Source of the DNA: an uncultured Cytophagia bacterium | GTDB lineage: Bacteria; Zhuqueibacterota; Zhuqueibacteria; Residuimicrobiales; Residuimicrobiaceae | Direction: 5' to 3' | Assembly: GCA_964541895.1 (NCBI GenBank) | Contig: CAZISM010000001.1 | Coordinates: forward strand, 22,796 to 86,795 | DNA: 64,000 nucleotides | In this document: positions 6,678 to 26,002 of the stretch, piece by piece | Numbering within the stretch: the stretch's first letter is position 1 | Layout of the letters: every line of letters starts with the position of its first letter | The notes under the pieces: generated by a model | What the model saw: the letters and a program-made list of their open reading frames with translations, nothing else | What the model was told of the DNA's origin: nothing | The model's database searches: none | Position numbers and translations under genes: made by a program

Positions 6678-7793
6678 TTGGCTACGATCGAACAACAATG
6701 GCCCCGTCCGCATACACGGGACATGCGTGAAGAGCTCTATCAGACTCTTTTTGAGCATGCAGGCATTGCGGTGGCGGTGGTGCGTCAGGATGGTCTTTTG
6801 TTGACGGTCAATCGTCAGTTTGAACTGCTGAGCGGATTATCGCGTGCAGAGCTGGAAAATCGAAAGTATCTGTTCGATTTTTTCCGTCTGGATGACCGGC
6901 CTGCTCTTGAATCCTGTTTGCGCCGCAAGTGCGACCATACAGAGGGCGGCGGCTGCTATTCGGAAGGGCAGTGGCAGGCGAGCGAGACCGAGAGCCGTCA
7001 TGTACAGCTGAATATGAGCGCCATTCCACGTACCAACGAATCCATCGTGTCGATCACGGATGTGACGGAGCTTCGCCAGCTGCAATTTCAACTGGCACGG
7101 TCCAAGCAGCTGGCCGAGATCGGCGAGCTGTCAGCGGCCATTGCGCACGAAATCCGCAATCCGTTGGGCGCCATCAACACCTCGGTGGAGGTTCTGCGCA
7201 ACAGCCTGCAGCTCTCCGGCGAAGATCACGATCTGATGAACATTATCCAGGAAGAAACGCGCCGCCTGGACCGGATCGTCAAGGATTTTCTACACTTTGC
7301 CAGACTAAACCGGATGAGAATTGCCGCGGTCGATCTGAATCAACTCATTCGGGAAACGTTGTTTTTATACAAAAACACGCTGCAGGGAGGCATCCGGATC
7401 GAAATTGACCTTTATGCCGAGCTGCCGCTGCTCTACGGCGATGAAGATCACCTGCGCCAGGTGATGATCAATCTCCTCGTCAACAGCGTGGAGGCCATGC
7501 CTCATGACGGGTCGCTGACCATTCGTACTACTGTGCTAAAAGTAGAGTCGTTGAAAAGTTTCATCCAGATCCTGATTCAGGATACCGGATTGGGGATAGA
7601 ACAGAAATATCTGCATAAAATTTTCAAGCCTTTCTTTTCAACCAAGGAAAAGGGTGTTGGGATGGGACTCGCCATCTGCGAGCGAATTATTCATAATCAT
7701 GGCGGAACGATTGATGTCACCAGCGACGTCGGCAAAGGGACAACGTTTGTAATAACGTTGCCGGTCAATCACGCCATCCCCGTGGAGGAGTAG
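6678..7793 (+). CDS. Cytoplasmic PAS sensor histidine kinase (NtrB/PilS-like); TTG start at 6678, alternative ATG at 6723
   Basis: H-box ELSAAIAHEIRNPL, N-box LLVNSVEAM, G-boxes DTGLGI and GVGMGLAICERII. No TM segments. Cys-rich PAS segment. Confidence 0.85.
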   Translation: MATIEQQWPRPHTRDMREELYQTLFEHAGIAVAVVRQDGLLLTVNRQFELLSGLSRAELENRKYLFDFFRLDDRPALESCLRRKCDHTEGGGCYSEGQWQASETESRHVQLNMSAIPRTNESIVSITDVTELRQLQFQLARSKQLAEIGELSAAIAHEIRNPLGAINTSVEVLRNSLQLSGEDHDLMNIIQEETRRLDRIVKDFLHFARLNRMRIAAVDLNQLIRETLFLYKNTLQGGIRIEIDLYAELPLLYGDEDHLRQVMINLLVNSVEAMPHDGSLTIRTTVLKVESLKSFIQILIQDTGLGIEQKYLHKIFKPFFSTKEKGVGMGLAICERIIHNHGGTIDVTSDVGKGTTFVITLPVNHAIPVEE

Positions 7794-7800
7794 GAATCCT

Positions 7801-9129
7801 ATGGCTGAAATACTAGTGGTCGAGGATATGGCCAATCCGCGCAAAGCCATGTCGGTTTTGCTGCAACGCGAAGGCTATGCCGTGGACGAAGCGTCCGATG
7901 GTCAGCGGGCTTTGCAAAAGCTTGCGGATCGTTTTTATGATCTGATGATCACCGACTATAAAATGGAACCCATGGACGGCTTTGAGCTCTTGCAGCACAG
8001 CCGGCGCAGCTTTCCCTTGACCAAGGTCATTCTGCTGACGGGGTTCGGCAGCATCAAGCAGAGCGTGGTGGCCATGAAGCTGGGCGCCTACGATTATCTG
8101 ACCAAACCGTGCGAGCCGAAGAGCCTGCTGCAAGTGGTCAAAACGGCCCTGGTTCATCCGGCAACGGACGCCGCCCATGCGGCCCACCTGCGCGCGTTCA
8201 GAGAGATCATCGGTGATTCGGATGCCATGCAACAGGTGCTCTGGCTGGTGTCGCAGATTGCTGAAACGGAATGCACGGTTTTGATTCAGGGCGAGAGCGG
8301 TACCGGCAAAGAGATGATCGCCAAAGCGATTCATGAAAGAAGTCATCGACGACAAAAGCCGCTGGTGGCGGTCAACTGCGGCGCCTTGCCGGAAAATTTG
8401 CTGGAAAGCGAATTATTCGGCCATGTCCGCGGTTCGTTCACCGGTGCGATTCGGGATCGAAAAGGCCTGTTCCAGGAAGCGGAAGGCGGCACCCTGTTTC
8501 TGGACGAGATCGGTGATATCTCTCCGGCGATGCAGGTGAAACTGCTGCGCGTGCTTCAGGAGGGCGAAATACGCCGGGTCGGCGACAATCAACCCACCAA
8601 AGTCGATGTGCGCATCCTCGCCGCCACCAATAAAGATCTGGAACAGGAAGTGGTTTGCGGACGGTTCCGCGAAGATCTGTTCTACCGTCTGAATGTGATT
8701 CCGATTATGGTGCCGGCCCTGCGTAACCGCAAAGATGATATACCGGATCTGGTGAACCATTTCACGCTGCAGTATGCCGAGCGGATGAAAAAGGTGCAGT
8801 TGGATCTGAGCGTCGACGCGCTGCGTCGCATGCAGGAATATAACTGGCCCGGCAACGTGCGCGAGCTGGAAAATTTTATCGAGCGTTTAACGGCTCTCAG
8901 TCAGAAAGCAACCGTCGGCGAAGCGGATGTGATCGCCCATCTGTCCCGCAATACCAAACCGCTCAACGCCTACCCGTCGGCAGGTGAGGCCACTTTGTCC
9001 GAGCTGGAAAAACGGGCGATCATGGACGCCATGCACCGGTATCAGAATAATCATCGACTGGTTTCTGAAAAGCTTGGTATTTCGACAACCACACTGTGGA
9101 GAAAATTAAAAGAGTATCAGATTTCATAA
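7801..9129 (+). CDS. Sigma-54-dependent response regulator (NtrC/PilR family: REC + AAA+ sigma-54 activator + Fis-type HTH)
   Basis: REC Asp in [15 protein letters not shown]. Walker [15 protein letters not shown] (GAFTGA variant) sigma-54 contact loop. C-terminal HTH. GGAGGAG RBS. Confidence 0.9.
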
Positions 9130-9175
9130 CAGCGTTTCGATAAAACAGGGCCGGCCTGCCGCCGGCTGTGATGAC

Positions 9176-9207
9176 AAAGGGCGACTCACCAGGTCGCCCT
9201 TTTTTTG
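9176..9207 (+). terminator. Rho-independent terminator after the NtrC-like gene (gggcgac/gtcgccc stem plus T7)
   Basis: Read directly in sequence. Confidence 0.6.
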
Positions 9208-24131: not shown

Positions 24132-24134
24132 TCT

Positions 24135-24722
24135 ATGAATTCGCTCCTGTACATCACCGTTGGATTGATCATTATCGGCATGCTGACGCTGTTGCTCATA
24201 CAAATGGACACCACCGTTAAAATCCATTCCACCTTCATGGTTCATGCTATGGCGAACGGAGGCAACCTGAATGTCATTAGCCGCATCCTGGAGTTTGATC
24301 TGCGCAAAATCGGCCATGGCCTGCGCGCGCCTTTGCGCGCCATCCATGTCGCCGACAGTTCCAGAATCCTGTTCTCGTATGACCAGCAACCGTTCAGCCT
24401 GTTCGACTCCATTCGCGTGGATTACCAGTTGAGCGACAATGCGGTTACGCCCAATCCAAGAGACAAGCTGCTGACCCGGACGGTGAACGGCAATCGACAA
24501 ACCCGGATCTCCATGGGCGTGACCCGGTTGCGCTTTCGCTATTTCAACCAGTCCGGCACCGAGCTGCCGACGCCGGTGGTGTCGGATTCCCTGTCAAAAA
24601 TCAAATCCGTTCGACTGCTCCTGGCCATCCAGAATACCGAGAGCATCAACGGCAAGTATGCAACGGCGTATTACAGCACCCAGATTTCGCCGAAGAATCT
24701 TTTGGTCCGTTACGGACGTTGA
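24135..24722 (+). CDS. Minor pilin-like protein (PilW/GspJ-like architecture)
   Basis: 195 aa. N-terminal helix LLYITVGLIIIGMLTLLLIQ. 3-nt gap to previous gene. Confidence 0.5.
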   Translation: MNSLLYITVGLIIIGMLTLLLIQMDTTVKIHSTFMVHAMANGGNLNVISRILEFDLRKIGHGLRAPLRAIHVADSSRILFSYDQQPFSLFDSIRVDYQLSDNAVTPNPRDKLLTRTVNGNRQTRISMGVTRLRFRYFNQSGTELPTPVVSDSLSKIKSVRLLLAIQNTESINGKYATAYYSTQISPKNLLVRYGR

Positions 24723-24733
24723 GGTAACCGATC

Positions 24734-26002
24734 ATGGGACGATACTCCTCGATGATGGTCATCATGCTTTTCATGGGCGTTCTGTTCATGCGCCTGCAAA
24801 CGCAAAACACCATCGTGCAAGGCTGGAATCAAAAGATGGTGCAGTACAATCGACTGCGGGTTCACAATATTGCCAATGGGGGCGTCACCAATGCGCTGAA
24901 CGCTCTGACCCTGGACGTGAACGCCTCTGCAGCGGTAAGCAATGTCAGTCTGGCCGGCGGCACTTACTCCTACTCCTTCGCGCGCAAGGAGCAGGATGCC
25001 ACTTTGGGGGTTACGGATATCCGCGTCACCGCCATCGGCCGCTATCGCGATTTGAACGACACCGTTGTCGTACTGCTGACCCGCCCCTCATTTTCGCGCT
25101 ACGCTTATTTTACCAATGACGAAGGAACCATCTGGTTTCAGACCGGCGATACACTGACCGGCCCGGTTCATACCAACGGCTATTTCAATATGCAAGGCTA
25201 TCCGGTCTTCTATGGTAAAATAACCAGTCACGGAGTATACAGTTCCTCAAGTCCGTACCGAAAGTATTCGTCTGGCGTTACCAGCCCGGCTTTCGACGGT
25301 GGCTCGGAGTGGGGGGTGCCGACGCTGGAAATGCCAACCGTTATTCCTGCCGATTTGAAAGCGGCGGCGCAATCGGATGGTCTCTATATCGGCACCTATT
25401 CCTATGTATGGATGGAATTCCTGAGCAACGGCACCGTCAAGGTGGCTAAATCCAATTCCAGCAGCACGCCCTCTTCCGGTTCGTATGTCAGCTATGATCT
25501 GAGCTCTTTGAACGGTGTGTTCCTGGTGGAAAAATCAGGCACCACGCCCGTCGTACATGTGAAAGGTACGGTCAATGGCCAGGTAACGGTTGCCTCCTCA
25601 GGTAACATAAAAGTGACGGGCAATCTGCTGCTGGCGGATAATCCGCAGACCAATCCCGCCTCGGACGATATCGCGGGTTTGTGTGCGGCAAAAAATATCA
25701 TTGTAACCAATAATTCGCTGGATGATGATCGTATCATTCAGGCCACCTGCATGACCATGAACACCTCCGTTTCCAGTACAACCAATTTTAATGTGGAAAA
25801 CTACAGTACAACCCGGTACGGCACTCTGAGCCTGCTGGGAGGGCTGATACAACGGGGTCGTGGAGCAGTAGGTACGGTGGGTACGGCCACCACTCGAAAA
25901 GGATATATCAAGGATTATGTCTGGGATTCCCGGCTGCAGGACATAGCACCGCCCTATTTCCCCATGCTCTTTGTGCTGCGCAAAATATCCTGGTATGATT
26001 AA
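24734..26002 (+). CDS. PilX-like minor pilin/pilus assembly protein
   Basis: 422 aa. N-terminus MMVIMLFMGVLFMRLQTQNTIVQGWNQ resembles the PilX_N helix followed by Q/N-rich segment. Large beta-rich body. Confidence 0.5.
   Translation: MGRYSSMMVIMLFMGVLFMRLQTQNTIVQGWNQKMVQYNRLRVHNIANGGVTNALNALTLDVNASAAVSNVSLAGGTYSYSFARKEQDATLGVTDIRVTAIGRYRDLNDTVVVLLTRPSFSRYAYFTNDEGTIWFQTGDTLTGPVHTNGYFNMQGYPVFYGKITSHGVYSSSSPYRKYSSGVTSPAFDGGSEWGVPTLEMPTVIPADLKAAAQSDGLYIGTYSYVWMEFLSNGTVKVAKSNSSSTPSSGSYVSYDLSSLNGVFLVEKSGTTPVVHVKGTVNGQVTVASSGNIKVTGNLLLADNPQTNPASDDIAGLCAAKNIIVTNNSLDDDRIIQATCMTMNTSVSSTTNFNVENYSTTRYGTLSLLGGLIQRGRGAVGTVGTATTRKGYIKDYVWDSRLQDIAPPYFPMLFVLRKISWYD

What the first reader, a model, noticed from the sequence alone, without database searches (positions are those of the whole stretch)
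6678..26002. Complete type IV pilus-like machinery whose pilin-like proteins all lack the canonical prepilin motif, with no prepilin peptidase in the locus
The locus has a PilB extension ATPase, PilC platform, PilT-like retraction ATPase, PilM-N, PilO-P, secretin and four N-terminal-helix pilin-like proteins (9900, 23643, 24135, 24734). None shows the G(-1)/F(+1)/E(+5) class III signal that PilD-type peptidases require. Their N-termini are MGQQQLLLIVLS, MNNAEVILTIGS, MNSLLYITVGL and MGRYSSMMVIM, and no A24-family peptidase gene lies within 64 kb. Either processing uses an unlinked or non-canonical peptidase, or these subunits assemble unprocessed as signal-anchor proteins. In both cases this is a divergent type IV filament system.
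Basis: partly seen in the sequence, partly recalled or inferred. Interest (0 to 1): 0.85.

Follow-up and report, generated by a model that had tools for sequence, protein, structure and literature searches.

The report
Type IV pilus machine with leaderless pilins
This locus encodes a type IV pilus-like machine, common in the Bacteroidota-related (FCB) group of phyla, whose filament subunits have the pilin fold but are made with no leader peptide and no linked leader-cutting enzyme, which were thought to be universal for these filaments.

Summary
Window 6678-26002 encodes a two-component/sigma-54 regulator pair, PilC, PilB, PilT, PilN-like and PilO-like proteins, a secretin, and four proteins with an N-terminal hydrophobic helix. 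No Peptidase_A24 gene lies anywhere in the 64 kb.

No upstream start codon exists, so none of the four can carry a normal leader. The same module occurs in at least 505 species genomes across FCB phyla. In 78 fetched loci, no A24 peptidase lies within 10 kb, and no other conserved unknown gene is present.

Counted from Met1, position 5 is Q or E in every subfamily except the 24135 and 24734 families. This is the place of the canonical Glu5.

My best reading (about 50%) is that these pilins are made already "mature" and need no prepilin peptidase. The main rival (about 33%) is a 1-4 residue leader cut after a conserved Gly by an unlinked peptidase. This is a new variant of a known kind, and I found no prior description.

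The parts
6678..7793 (+). PAS-HisKA-HATPase sensor kinase (PilS-like position)
   Evidence: Pfam HATPase_c 1e-26, HisKA 7e-16, PAS
7801..9129 (+). Sigma-54-dependent response regulator (PilR-like)
   Evidence: Pfam Response_reg, Sigma54_activat 1e-74, HTH_8. Found next to the pilin gene in 29 related loci.
9415..9867 (+). Stand-alone receiver-domain protein
   Evidence: Pfam Response_reg 5e-19
9900..10313 (+). Major pilin, leaderless (MGQQQLLLIVLS...), 137 aa
10511..11851 (+). PilC/GspF platform protein
   Evidence: Pfam T2SSF 2e-29; NCBIfam GspF and PilC at about 148 bits
11854..13638 (+). PilB-type extension ATPase
   Evidence: Pfam T2SSE 1e-101; TIGR02538 PilB 419 bits is the best family
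13680..14645 (+). Receiver plus cyclic-nucleotide-binding domain protein
   Evidence: Pfam Response_reg 1e-22, cNMP_binding 9e-6. Conserved between PilB and PilT in about 30 loci.
14618..15907 (+). PilT-type retraction ATPase
   Evidence: TIGR01420 PilT/PilU family, 320.2 bits against a cut-off of 319.1
15914..17470 (+). 518-aa bitopic protein. The C-terminal half is PilN-like; the N-terminal 340 aa are unassigned (possible PilM fusion).
   Evidence: Orthologue profile against PDB: M. xanthus PilN E 1e-3. 2 of 8 orthologues show a weak Pfam PilN hit. hhalign against E. coli HofM was negative.
17472..18434 (+). 320-aa bitopic protein, PilO-like, with a C-terminal beta-rich domain (possible PilP)
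   Evidence: Orthologue profile against PDB: M. xanthus PilO E 2e-3. 3 of 9 orthologues hit Pfam PilO, best 3e-7.
18435..20168 (+). Outer-membrane secretin (PilQ-like)
   Evidence: Pfam Secretin 3e-20; the best NCBIfam match is the PilQ subfamily
20236..23610 (+). 1124-aa lipoprotein made of Big_1/invasin-D3 repeats. It may be a pilus-associated adhesin or a cargo.
   Evidence: Pfam Big_1 3e-56 (8 stretches), Invasin_D3 2e-52. Lipobox LWSC. Homologues in 15 related loci.
23643..24131 (+). GspI/PilV-like minor pilin, leaderless (MNNAEVILTIG..., Glu at position 5)
24135..24722 (+). Candidate minor pilin (GspJ/PilW-like position), leaderless (MNSLLYITVGL...)
   Evidence: N-terminal hydrophobic helix and a conserved place in the minor-pilin block. 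Only weak matches: Thermus pilin TTHA1219 E 1.9, hhalign to E. coli GspJ E 0.017.
24734..26002 (+). 422-aa DUF4900 protein with an N-terminal hydrophobic helix (MGRYSSMMVIM...). It occupies the GspK/PilX-like position; its fold is untested.
   Evidence: Pfam DUF4900 2e-10, present in all 9 orthologues. No sequence relative in the PDB. Conserved MGR / MxGK N-terminus.

Best explanation
This is a type IVa-pilus-like filament machine: a PilB extension ATPase, PilC platform, PilT retraction ATPase, PilN/PilO-like alignment proteins and a PilQ-like secretin. It is probably regulated by a kinase plus a sigma-54 activator and by a receiver/cyclic-nucleotide-binding protein.

Its subunits are one very conserved major pilin and a block of three minor subunits. 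The first of these is GspI/PilV-like. The other two sit in the GspJ- and GspK-like positions.

What sets it apart is that the subunits are translated without a leader peptide. The encoded N-terminus corresponds to the mature N-terminus of ordinary pilins: Met1 stands in for N-methyl-Phe1, and Gln or Glu at position 5 stands in for Glu5.

Inferred mechanism:
- The hydrophobic helix inserts as an N-in signal anchor.
- No prepilin peptidase cut or N-methylation is needed. At most the initiator Met is trimmed.
- PilB/PilC extract the subunits from the membrane into a helical fibre primed by the minor-pilin complex and pass it through the secretin.
- PilT retracts the fibre.

The pilin folds are confident structure predictions. 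The gene content, the absence of leaders and the absence of a linked peptidase are shown. The absence of cleavage, filament formation and function (adhesion, twitching or secretion) are inferred.
For: Folds:
- The 23643 model (pLDDT 87) has GspI-family proteins as its top hits.

No leader is possible:
- Each start is the first start codon after a stop, in the window.
- 104 of 109 orthologous pilin genes have no upstream in-frame start. The median distance from the preceding stop is 4 codons.
- Many minor-pilin orthologues have a stop only 1-6 codons upstream.

Register from Met1:
- Position 5 is Q in 125 of 127 MG-starting cluster representatives. Positions 3 and 4 vary more (108 and 114 of 127).
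- Position 5 is Q or E in 122 of 129 members of the 23643 family. It is E in the window protein (MNNAE), in the MGQRELLL orthologues and in the MANKELLL pilin paralogues.
- hhalign aligns the two families Met1 to Met1.
- If cleavage followed the conserved Gly, the register would differ between subfamilies (MG|QQQLLL, MNTG|QMLL, MG|QRELLL).

N-terminal composition:
- Only 8 of 117 major pilins have any charged residue in the first 27 positions. Sec and class III leaders normally carry charged residues there.

No peptidase:
- None in the 64 kb window.
- None within +-10 kb in 78 loci from several phyla, by phmmer with E. coli GspO at E<=10, by the GxGD motif, and by a search for polytopic ORFs.
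- Clustering of all ORFs finds no other conserved family in the module.
- The M. roseus complete-genome paper reports pilB, pilC, pilT and pilQ but no pilA or pilD.
Against: - No whole genome carrying the system could be searched here, and prepilin peptidases are often unlinked and shared between systems.
- Gly (rarely Ala) is almost always at position 2 of the major pilin, and at position 4 of most 23643-family members, directly before Q/E. This is what a G(-1) cleavage site would look like.
- Three 23643 orthologues have one extra residue before that Gly (MANTGQ, MTNTGQ). This behaves like a leader of variable length.
- With Gly or Ala at position 2, Met aminopeptidase would be expected to remove Met1. 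That would shift Q/E to position 4 in those proteins.
- Anchoring on the helix Gly (G17 = canonical G14) gives a different register, with three extra residues at the N-terminus.
- The 24135 family does not keep a fixed register (D6 or D8).
- No experimental data exist.
Confidence: 0.5

Rival explanations
1. The machine is the same, but the subunits carry an ultra-short class III-like leader of 1-4 residues. It is cut after the conserved Gly or Ala (MG|QQQ..., MNTG|Q..., MGLG|Q..., MNNA|E..., MG|R...). The cutting enzyme would be an unlinked A24 peptidase or an unknown enzyme. The new Gln/Glu N-terminus would cyclise to uncharged pyroglutamate, as reported for archaeal EppA-dependent pilins, so no Glu5 would be needed.
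For: - Gly is at position 2 in 127 of 150 major-pilin representatives. Three further full-length pilins have Ala there (P0217, P0221, P0261).
- Gly at position 4 is at least 90% conserved and is followed by Q/E in the 23643 family.
- The length before the Gly varies (MNTG, MANTG, MTNTG).
- One IMG annotation calls a family member 'UPF0333', an archaeal class III signal family.
- Prepilin peptidases are known to be shared and unlinked (Denise et al. 2019, PMC6668835).
Against: - The residue after Gly2 of the major pilin (the would-be +1) is less conserved than position 5. It is S, T, N, G or R in 19 of 127 representatives. That does not fit a pyroglutamate requirement.
- Predicted cut sites give different registers in different subfamilies.
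- A 2-residue uncharged leader would be shorter than any substrate I know of (my own knowledge, not tested here).
- No A24 gene lies in 78 loci or in the window.
- pilD was reported as not found in the M. roseus genome.
Confidence: 0.33
2. The system does not build a surface pilus. It builds a short periplasmic pseudopilus and works as a type II-like secretion or surface-display machine, for example for the adjacent Big_1 lipoprotein. This rival concerns function and is compatible with either N-terminal model.
For: - The major subunit is as conserved as the ATPases (median identity 53.5% against 53% for PilB). This resembles GspG more than exposed pilins.
- It has a DGDGDG motif, which recalls the GspG calcium site (my own knowledge).
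- The first minor subunit is closest to GspI, and the set looks like GspI/J/K.
- A large repeat lipoprotein lies inside the operon.
- The Bacteroidetes 'T2SS' is itself derived from T4aP (PMC6668835).
Against: - A PilT-family retraction ATPase that reaches the family cut-off is conserved in the module in 49 loci. Classical T2SS lack PilT.
- PilN/PilO-like proteins are present rather than GspL/M/C.
- The best fold matches of the major subunit are true pilins.
Confidence: 0.2
3. The N-terminal helices are ordinary Sec signal peptides or plain membrane anchors. The four proteins would then be periplasmic or membrane proteins that are not polymerised.
For: - The window protein has G-A-S-A|A after the helix, which looks like a signal peptidase I site.
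- The head domain also exists without the helix, behind lipoprotein or Sec signals.
Against: - The AXA-like pattern is present in only 50 of 117 family members, and Asp or Glu is common at the -3 position.
- The hydrophobic stretch is about 22 residues long, has no basic n-region, and is nearly invariant across phyla. Signal peptides are not conserved this way, whereas a filament-core helix is.
- AF2 predicts one continuous 54-residue helix, as in pilins.
- The genes are tightly linked to PilC/PilB in about 50 loci.
Confidence: 0.05

Closest known systems
Type IVa pili of diderm bacteria (Pseudomonas, Myxococcus, Thermus: PilA, PilBCD, PilT, PilMNOPQ, PilSR)
   Same: - Same core parts: PilB, PilC, PilT, PilN/PilO-like proteins and a PilQ-like secretin.
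- A kinase plus a sigma-54 activator sit next to the pilin gene.
   Different: - No leader peptide and no Phe1/Glu5 motif.
- No match to N_methyl models.
- No disulfide loop (a single Cys).
- No pilD next to pilBC in any of 49 loci that have PilB.
- Gene order is pilin-pilC-pilB.
- PilN and PilO are fused to extra domains.
- The major pilin is unusually conserved.
T4aP-derived 'type II secretion system' of Bacteroidetes (Cytophaga hutchinsonii CHU_3191-3201, Flavobacterium Fjoh_0611-0622)
   Same: - It is also found in the FCB group.
- It is a divergent T4aP-like cluster with hard-to-recognise minor pseudopilins and PilMNOP-like proteins (PMC5553014, PMC6668835).
   Different: That system encodes a Peptidase_A24 protein (CHU_3197) inside the cluster and a GspG-type major pseudopilin. 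No PilT is listed for it. The system studied here has PilT, no peptidase and leaderless subunits.
T2SS pseudopilins GspG and the GspI-GspJ-GspK tip complex
   Same: - The 23643 product is closest in fold to XcpV/GspI/EpsI.
- Three consecutive minor-subunit genes of rising size (162, 195, 422 aa) echo GspI/J/K.
- The largest lacks a polar residue at position 5, as GspK lacks Glu5 (my own knowledge).
- The major subunit is highly conserved.
   Different: - The GspJ- and GspK-like assignments are not demonstrated.
- No GspC/L/M were detected.
- PilT is present.
- There are no class III leaders.
Archaeal type IV pilins processed by EppA (Gln at +1, no Glu5, pyroglutamate N-terminus)
   Same: - A Gly-Gln junction at the start of the hydrophobic helix.
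- No Glu5 in the major subunit.
- One family member was auto-annotated UPF0333.
   Different: - The archaeal proteins have basic leaders of several residues and a dedicated A24 peptidase.
- The machinery here is bacterial T4aP-type, with a secretin and PilT.
- The resemblance is recalled from memory, not tested.

Membership tests
Type IV pilin / class III signal peptide proteins (Pfam N_methyl PF07963, TIGR02532) | Short basic leader peptide ending in Gly(-1), removed by a prepilin peptidase | tested here: not met
   - The first possible start codon gives MGQQQ, MNNAE, MNSLL and MGRYS.
- 104 of 109 orthologous pilin genes have no upstream in-frame start.
- Only 8 of 117 have any charged residue in the first 27 positions.
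Type IV pilin / class III signal peptide proteins (Pfam N_methyl PF07963, TIGR02532) | Conserved mature N-terminus F/M(+1)-x-x-x-E(+5), recognised by the N_methyl HMMs | tested here: not met
   - No N_methyl or TIGR02532 hit for the four proteins.
- 0 of 117 and 0 of 130 family members hit at E<=1.
- A modified form exists: Q/E at position 5 counted from Met1.
Type IV pilin / class III signal peptide proteins (Pfam N_methyl PF07963, TIGR02532) | Pilin fold: an N-terminal helix of about 50 residues packed on an antiparallel beta-sheet | tested here: met
- Not tested for 24135 and 24734.
Type IV pilin / class III signal peptide proteins (Pfam N_methyl PF07963, TIGR02532) | Polymerised into a filament by a PilB/PilC-type motor | not testable with these tools
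   Only genetic linkage is shown: pilin-PilC-PilB are adjacent in about 50 loci.
Type IVa pilus machinery | PilB-type ATPase, PilC platform and PilT retraction ATPase | tested here: met
   - T2SSE 1e-101, with best family PilB.
- T2SSF 2e-29.
- PilT/PilU subfamily cut-off reached, 320.2 against 319.1.
- The PilB and PilC scores are below NCBIfam equivalog cut-offs, so these are divergent members.
Type IVa pilus machinery | PilM-PilN-PilO-PilP alignment complex and PilQ secretin | tested here: inconclusive
   - Secretin domain is clear.
- PilN-like: E 1e-3.
- PilO-like: E 2e-3, with Pfam PilO in 3 of 9 orthologues.
- PilM and PilP were not detected, but only weak tests were available.
Type IVa pilus machinery | Prepilin peptidase PilD (Peptidase_A24 with or without the methyltransferase domain) | tested here: not met
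   - Absent from the 64 kb window and from +-10 kb of 78 related loci.
- The whole genome is not testable here.
- pilD was reported as not found in the M. roseus genome (PMC3534657).
Type II secretion system | GspC/L/M assembly platform, GspG-K pseudopilins, no retraction ATPase | tested here: not met
   - PilT is present.
- No GspC or GspL hits; only one weak T2SSM_b hit in an orthologue.
- A GspI-like fold is present.

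The most novel reading that the evidence does not exclude
A clade of type IVa-like pilus machines spanning several FCB phyla (Calditrichota, KSB1, Zixibacteria, Ignavibacteriota, Kryptonia, Balneolales, Bacteroidota) has dispensed entirely with the class III leader and the prepilin peptidase. Its pilins are born mature: Met1 (possibly still formylated, hence uncharged) and Gln5 replace N-methyl-Phe1 and Glu5. 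This would be the first type IV filament lineage that does not depend on an A24 peptidase.
Probability: 0.45. Interest if true: 0.85.

Novelty: new variant of a known kind. Interest (0 to 1): 0.72.

Why it matters
The leader peptide, its removal by an A24 aspartyl peptidase, and the Phe1/Glu5 N-terminus are treated as defining, universal features of the type IV filament superfamily. Detection tools such as PilFind, the N_methyl HMMs and the MacSyFinder models depend on them.

Consequences:
- **Missed annotations.** The machines in this widespread lineage are currently annotated as incomplete. The M. roseus genome paper, for example, reports 'pilA and pilD not found'. Pili in many environmental FCB bacteria are therefore under-called.
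- **A natural experiment.** If the subunits really assemble unprocessed, the system shows what the leader, N-methylation and Glu5 are actually needed for in membrane extraction and fibre packing.
- **Cultured carriers.** Genera with cultured members (Gracilimonas, Melioribacter) appear among the carriers, so the question is directly testable.

Tried and rejected
- **Upstream start codons giving a canonical leader.** Rejected.
- **Sequence-level link to canonical pilins.** Only marginal: Geobacter PilA E 0.035, Thermus PilA5 E 0.12, hhalign to E. coli GspG E 0.005 at 7% probability. These suggest a register but do not settle it.
- **Signal peptidase I cleavage.** The AXA pattern is not conserved.
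- **A hidden peptidase.** phmmer with GspO, the GxGD motif and a polytopic-ORF screen gave one candidate (L040:12624-13097). It reads as a DoxX-type protein, not A24; this is judged by eye from the sequence. Clustering of all ORFs in 79 loci gave only antisense shadow ORFs besides the known parts.
- **PilM assignment of 15914-17470.** hhalign against E. coli HofM was negative, and there were no Pfam hits. Left open.
- **A sigma-54 promoter in the window.** The scan was not above chance. There is one weak site at 9372-9387. The strict consensus is, however, enriched upstream of pilin genes in the related loci.
- **24734 family against the PDB.** No hits.
- **Literature.** Nine full-text searches found no description of leaderless pilins or of this family.
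- **The window's own genome.** It is not among the species representatives; the best pilin identity is 74%, and the closest modules are L004 and L010.
- **A bias to note.** Alignment A2 was pre-filtered for sequences starting with MG, so its 'invariant M1 G2' is by construction.

Full report
**1. What is in the sequence**

Fifteen co-directional genes fill window 6678-26002. Pfam and NCBIfam identify the following:
- a PAS histidine kinase (6678-7793);
- a sigma-54-dependent response regulator (7801-9129);
- a receiver protein (9415-9867);
- PilC/GspF (10511-11851);
- a PilB-type ATPase (11854-13638; TIGR02538 is the best family at 419 bits, below its cut-off);
- a receiver plus cyclic-nucleotide-binding protein (13680-14645);
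- a PilT-family ATPase (14618-15907; 320.2 bits against a cut-off of 319.1);
- a secretin (18435-20168; the best match is PilQ);
- a 1124-aa lipoprotein of Big_1/invasin repeats (20236-23610).

Two bitopic proteins have no Pfam hit themselves. Profiles built from their orthologues match Myxococcus PilN (E 1e-3, C-terminal half of 15914-17470) and PilO (E 2e-3, 17472-18434). Three of 9 orthologues hit Pfam PilO.

The four proteins with an N-terminal hydrophobic helix are at the stated coordinates with the stated N-termini.

**2. Are they pilins?**

- **24135 family.** It gives only weak hints: Thermus pilin TTHA1219 at E 1.9, and hhalign to E. coli GspJ at E 0.017. In both, the conserved Asp aligns on the canonical Glu5.
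- **24734 family.** It always carries DUF4900 and has no relative in the PDB by sequence. Its pilin nature rests on the N-terminal helix and its place in the block.

None of these proteins matches the N-methyl/class III models. The same holds for 117 members of the 9900 family and 130 members of the 23643 family, even at E<=1.

**3. No leader**

In the window, each start is the first ATG/GTG/TTG after an in-frame stop. The 9900 gene has TAA and TGA in frame just upstream and an AAGGAG ribosome-binding site.

In the 79 related loci (78 from the species-genome collection, one from an encoding-contig look-up), 104 of 109 pilin genes have no in-frame start between the preceding stop and the ATG of 'MG...'. 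The median distance from the stop is four codons. Many minor-pilin orthologues have a stop one to six codons upstream.

The N-terminus is MGQQQLLL in 116 of the 120 closest homologues. It starts with MG in 127 of 150 representatives of 50%-identity clusters. Most of the rest are fragments, fusions or MA variants. Only 8 of 117 have any charged residue in the first 27 positions.

**4. No peptidase nearby**

Every sizeable ORF of the 64 kb window was scanned against Pfam and there is no Peptidase_A24. No unexplained polytopic protein remains.

These are labelled Calditrichaeota, KSB1, Zixibacteria, Ignavibacteriota, Kryptonia, Balneolales (including cultured Gracilimonas tropica) and Bacteroidota.

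In the fetched loci, the order pilin-PilC-PilB-(three minor subunits)-PilT-PilN-like-PilO-like-secretin recurs (Pfam-annotated example). Three searches were run on these loci:
- phmmer with E. coli GspO found nothing at E<=10;
- the GxGD motif search and the polytopic-ORF search found only a DoxX-like protein;
- clustering of all ORFs revealed no other conserved family that could be a new peptidase.

[quoted passage not shown] Its family (Melioribacteraceae) carries the module in metagenome-assembled genomes. That is what this system would look like to standard annotation.

I could not search a whole carrier genome. An unlinked peptidase therefore remains possible.

**5. Cleaved or not?**

Two patterns compete.

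*Pattern favouring no cleavage.* Counted from Met1, position 5 is Q or E in every subfamily except the 24135 and 24734 families:
- MGQQQLLL in the major pilin (Q5 in 125 of 127, more conserved than Q3 or Q4);
- MGQRELLL, MNTGQMLL and MGLGQTLL, and the window's MNNAEVIL, in the GspI-like family (Q/E in 122 of 129);
- MANKELLL in Balneola pilin paralogues.

Profile alignment puts the two families Met1 on Met1. This is the register of Phe1...Glu5 in ordinary mature pilins, and it suggests that the encoded N-terminus is the functional one.

*Pattern favouring cleavage.* A Gly (rarely Ala) is conserved at position 2 or 4, directly before Q/E/R. A few orthologues have one more residue before it. That resembles a very short leader with a G(-1) site. 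Cleavage would leave an N-terminal Gln/Glu able to form pyroglutamate, as in archaeal EppA substrates (my own knowledge).

Against the cleavage reading:
- the would-be +1 residue of the major pilin varies (S, T, N, G, R) more than position 5 does;
- the predicted cut sites give inconsistent registers between subfamilies.

Against the no-cleavage reading:
- Met aminopeptidase should remove Met1 before Gly or Ala, which shifts the register in those proteins;
- anchoring on the helix glycine gives a three-residue offset.

I put about 50% on no endoproteolytic maturation and about 33% on an ultra-short cleaved leader. Signal peptidase I cleavage is unlikely. The AXA-like pattern occurs in only 50 of 117 family members, and the helix is nearly invariant across phyla.

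**6. How it probably works**

This section is inference from established type IV pilus biology. Subunits insert N-in. The GspI-like subunit and its two partners prime assembly on PilC. PilB extends the fibre through the secretin and PilT retracts it.

Expression is probably sigma-54-dependent. The strict TGGYAY-N5-TTGC consensus lies upstream of 7 of 109 pilin genes. Those are 7 of only 21 such sites in all loci. The window itself has only a weak site.

Function is open: adhesion or twitching, or a secretion/display role. The major subunit is as conserved as the ATPases, which resembles GspG, and a large repeat lipoprotein sits in the operon. The conserved PilT, however, argues for a dynamic pilus.

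**7. Comparison and novelty**

The system works like a type IVa pilus and shares its motor, platform, alignment proteins and secretin. Its subunits fail the defining sequence features of type IV pilins (leader, Phe1/Glu5, N_methyl HMM) while meeting the fold.

It differs from the T4aP-derived 'T2SS' of Bacteroidetes, which has an A24 peptidase in the cluster (PMC5553014; PMC6668835). It also differs from Fibrobacteres, which have canonical PilA and PilD (PMC4704652).

Nine literature searches found no description of the family or of leaderless pilins. IMG auto-annotates some members as 'PilE'.

I class it as a new variant of a known kind and score interest at 0.72. The exciting reading (type IV filaments independent of a prepilin peptidase) is plausible but unproven.

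Noticed in passing
Proteins P0163, P0188, P0124, P0216, P0239, P0266, P0234 (relatives of window 9900-10313): The globular head of this pilin family also occurs without the hydrophobic helix. It appears as 3-5 tandem copies behind lipoprotein or Sec signals, or fused behind zinc-ribbon or multi-TM modules. That is unusual for a pilin domain.
   Followed up: partly
window 9900-10313 and 46 related loci: The major pilin is as conserved as PilB and PilT across phyla. Median identity to the window is 53.5%, against 53% for PilB, 35% for the secretin and 29-34% for the minor subunits. It has invariant GGGG (residues 61-64) and DGDGDG-like (residues 111-117) loops and only one Cys.
   Followed up: partly
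window 20236-23610 and 29823-31466: A 1124-aa lipoprotein (lipobox LWSC) with eight Big_1/invasin-D3 repeats sits between the secretin and the minor pilins. Homologues occur in 15 related loci. A second Big_1 protein lies 4 kb downstream. These may be an adhesin or a cargo of the machine.
   Followed up: no
window 13680-14645 and 48770-50881 (-): A receiver plus cNMP-binding protein is conserved between PilB and PilT in about 30 loci. The window also encodes a CHASE2-adenylate/guanylate cyclase. Together they hint at cyclic-nucleotide control of extension and retraction.
   Followed up: no
Loci L013, L014, L016, L017, L044, L051, L076 (60-160 nt upstream of pilin genes); window 9372-9387: The strict sigma-54 promoter consensus TGGYAY-N5-TTGC is about 26-fold enriched upstream of pilin genes in the related loci. 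Seven of the 21 sites found in all fetched loci lie there. The window has only a degenerate site, TGGCATAATCATTGAT.
   Followed up: partly
Loci L067, L069, L074 (about 500 nt downstream of the first pilin gene): Balneola-type loci carry a second pilin paralogue starting MANKELLLVIL, with Glu at position 5. Overall, 121 ORFs in the 80 sequences (79 loci and the window) match the window pilin, 109 of them with the N-terminal motif intact, so several loci have tandem pilin genes.
   Followed up: partly
window 38232-41305: A FlgT_N-domain protein, a CsgG-family lipoprotein and a FecR-domain protein lie in a row. This may be a curli-like or CsgG-type secretion module, unrelated to the pilus cluster.
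   Followed up: no
window 26147-27670 (-): A 507-aa OmpA-domain protein with a signal sequence is encoded convergently, right after the last pilus gene. Whether it is a peptidoglycan-binding partner of the machine was not examined.
   Followed up: no
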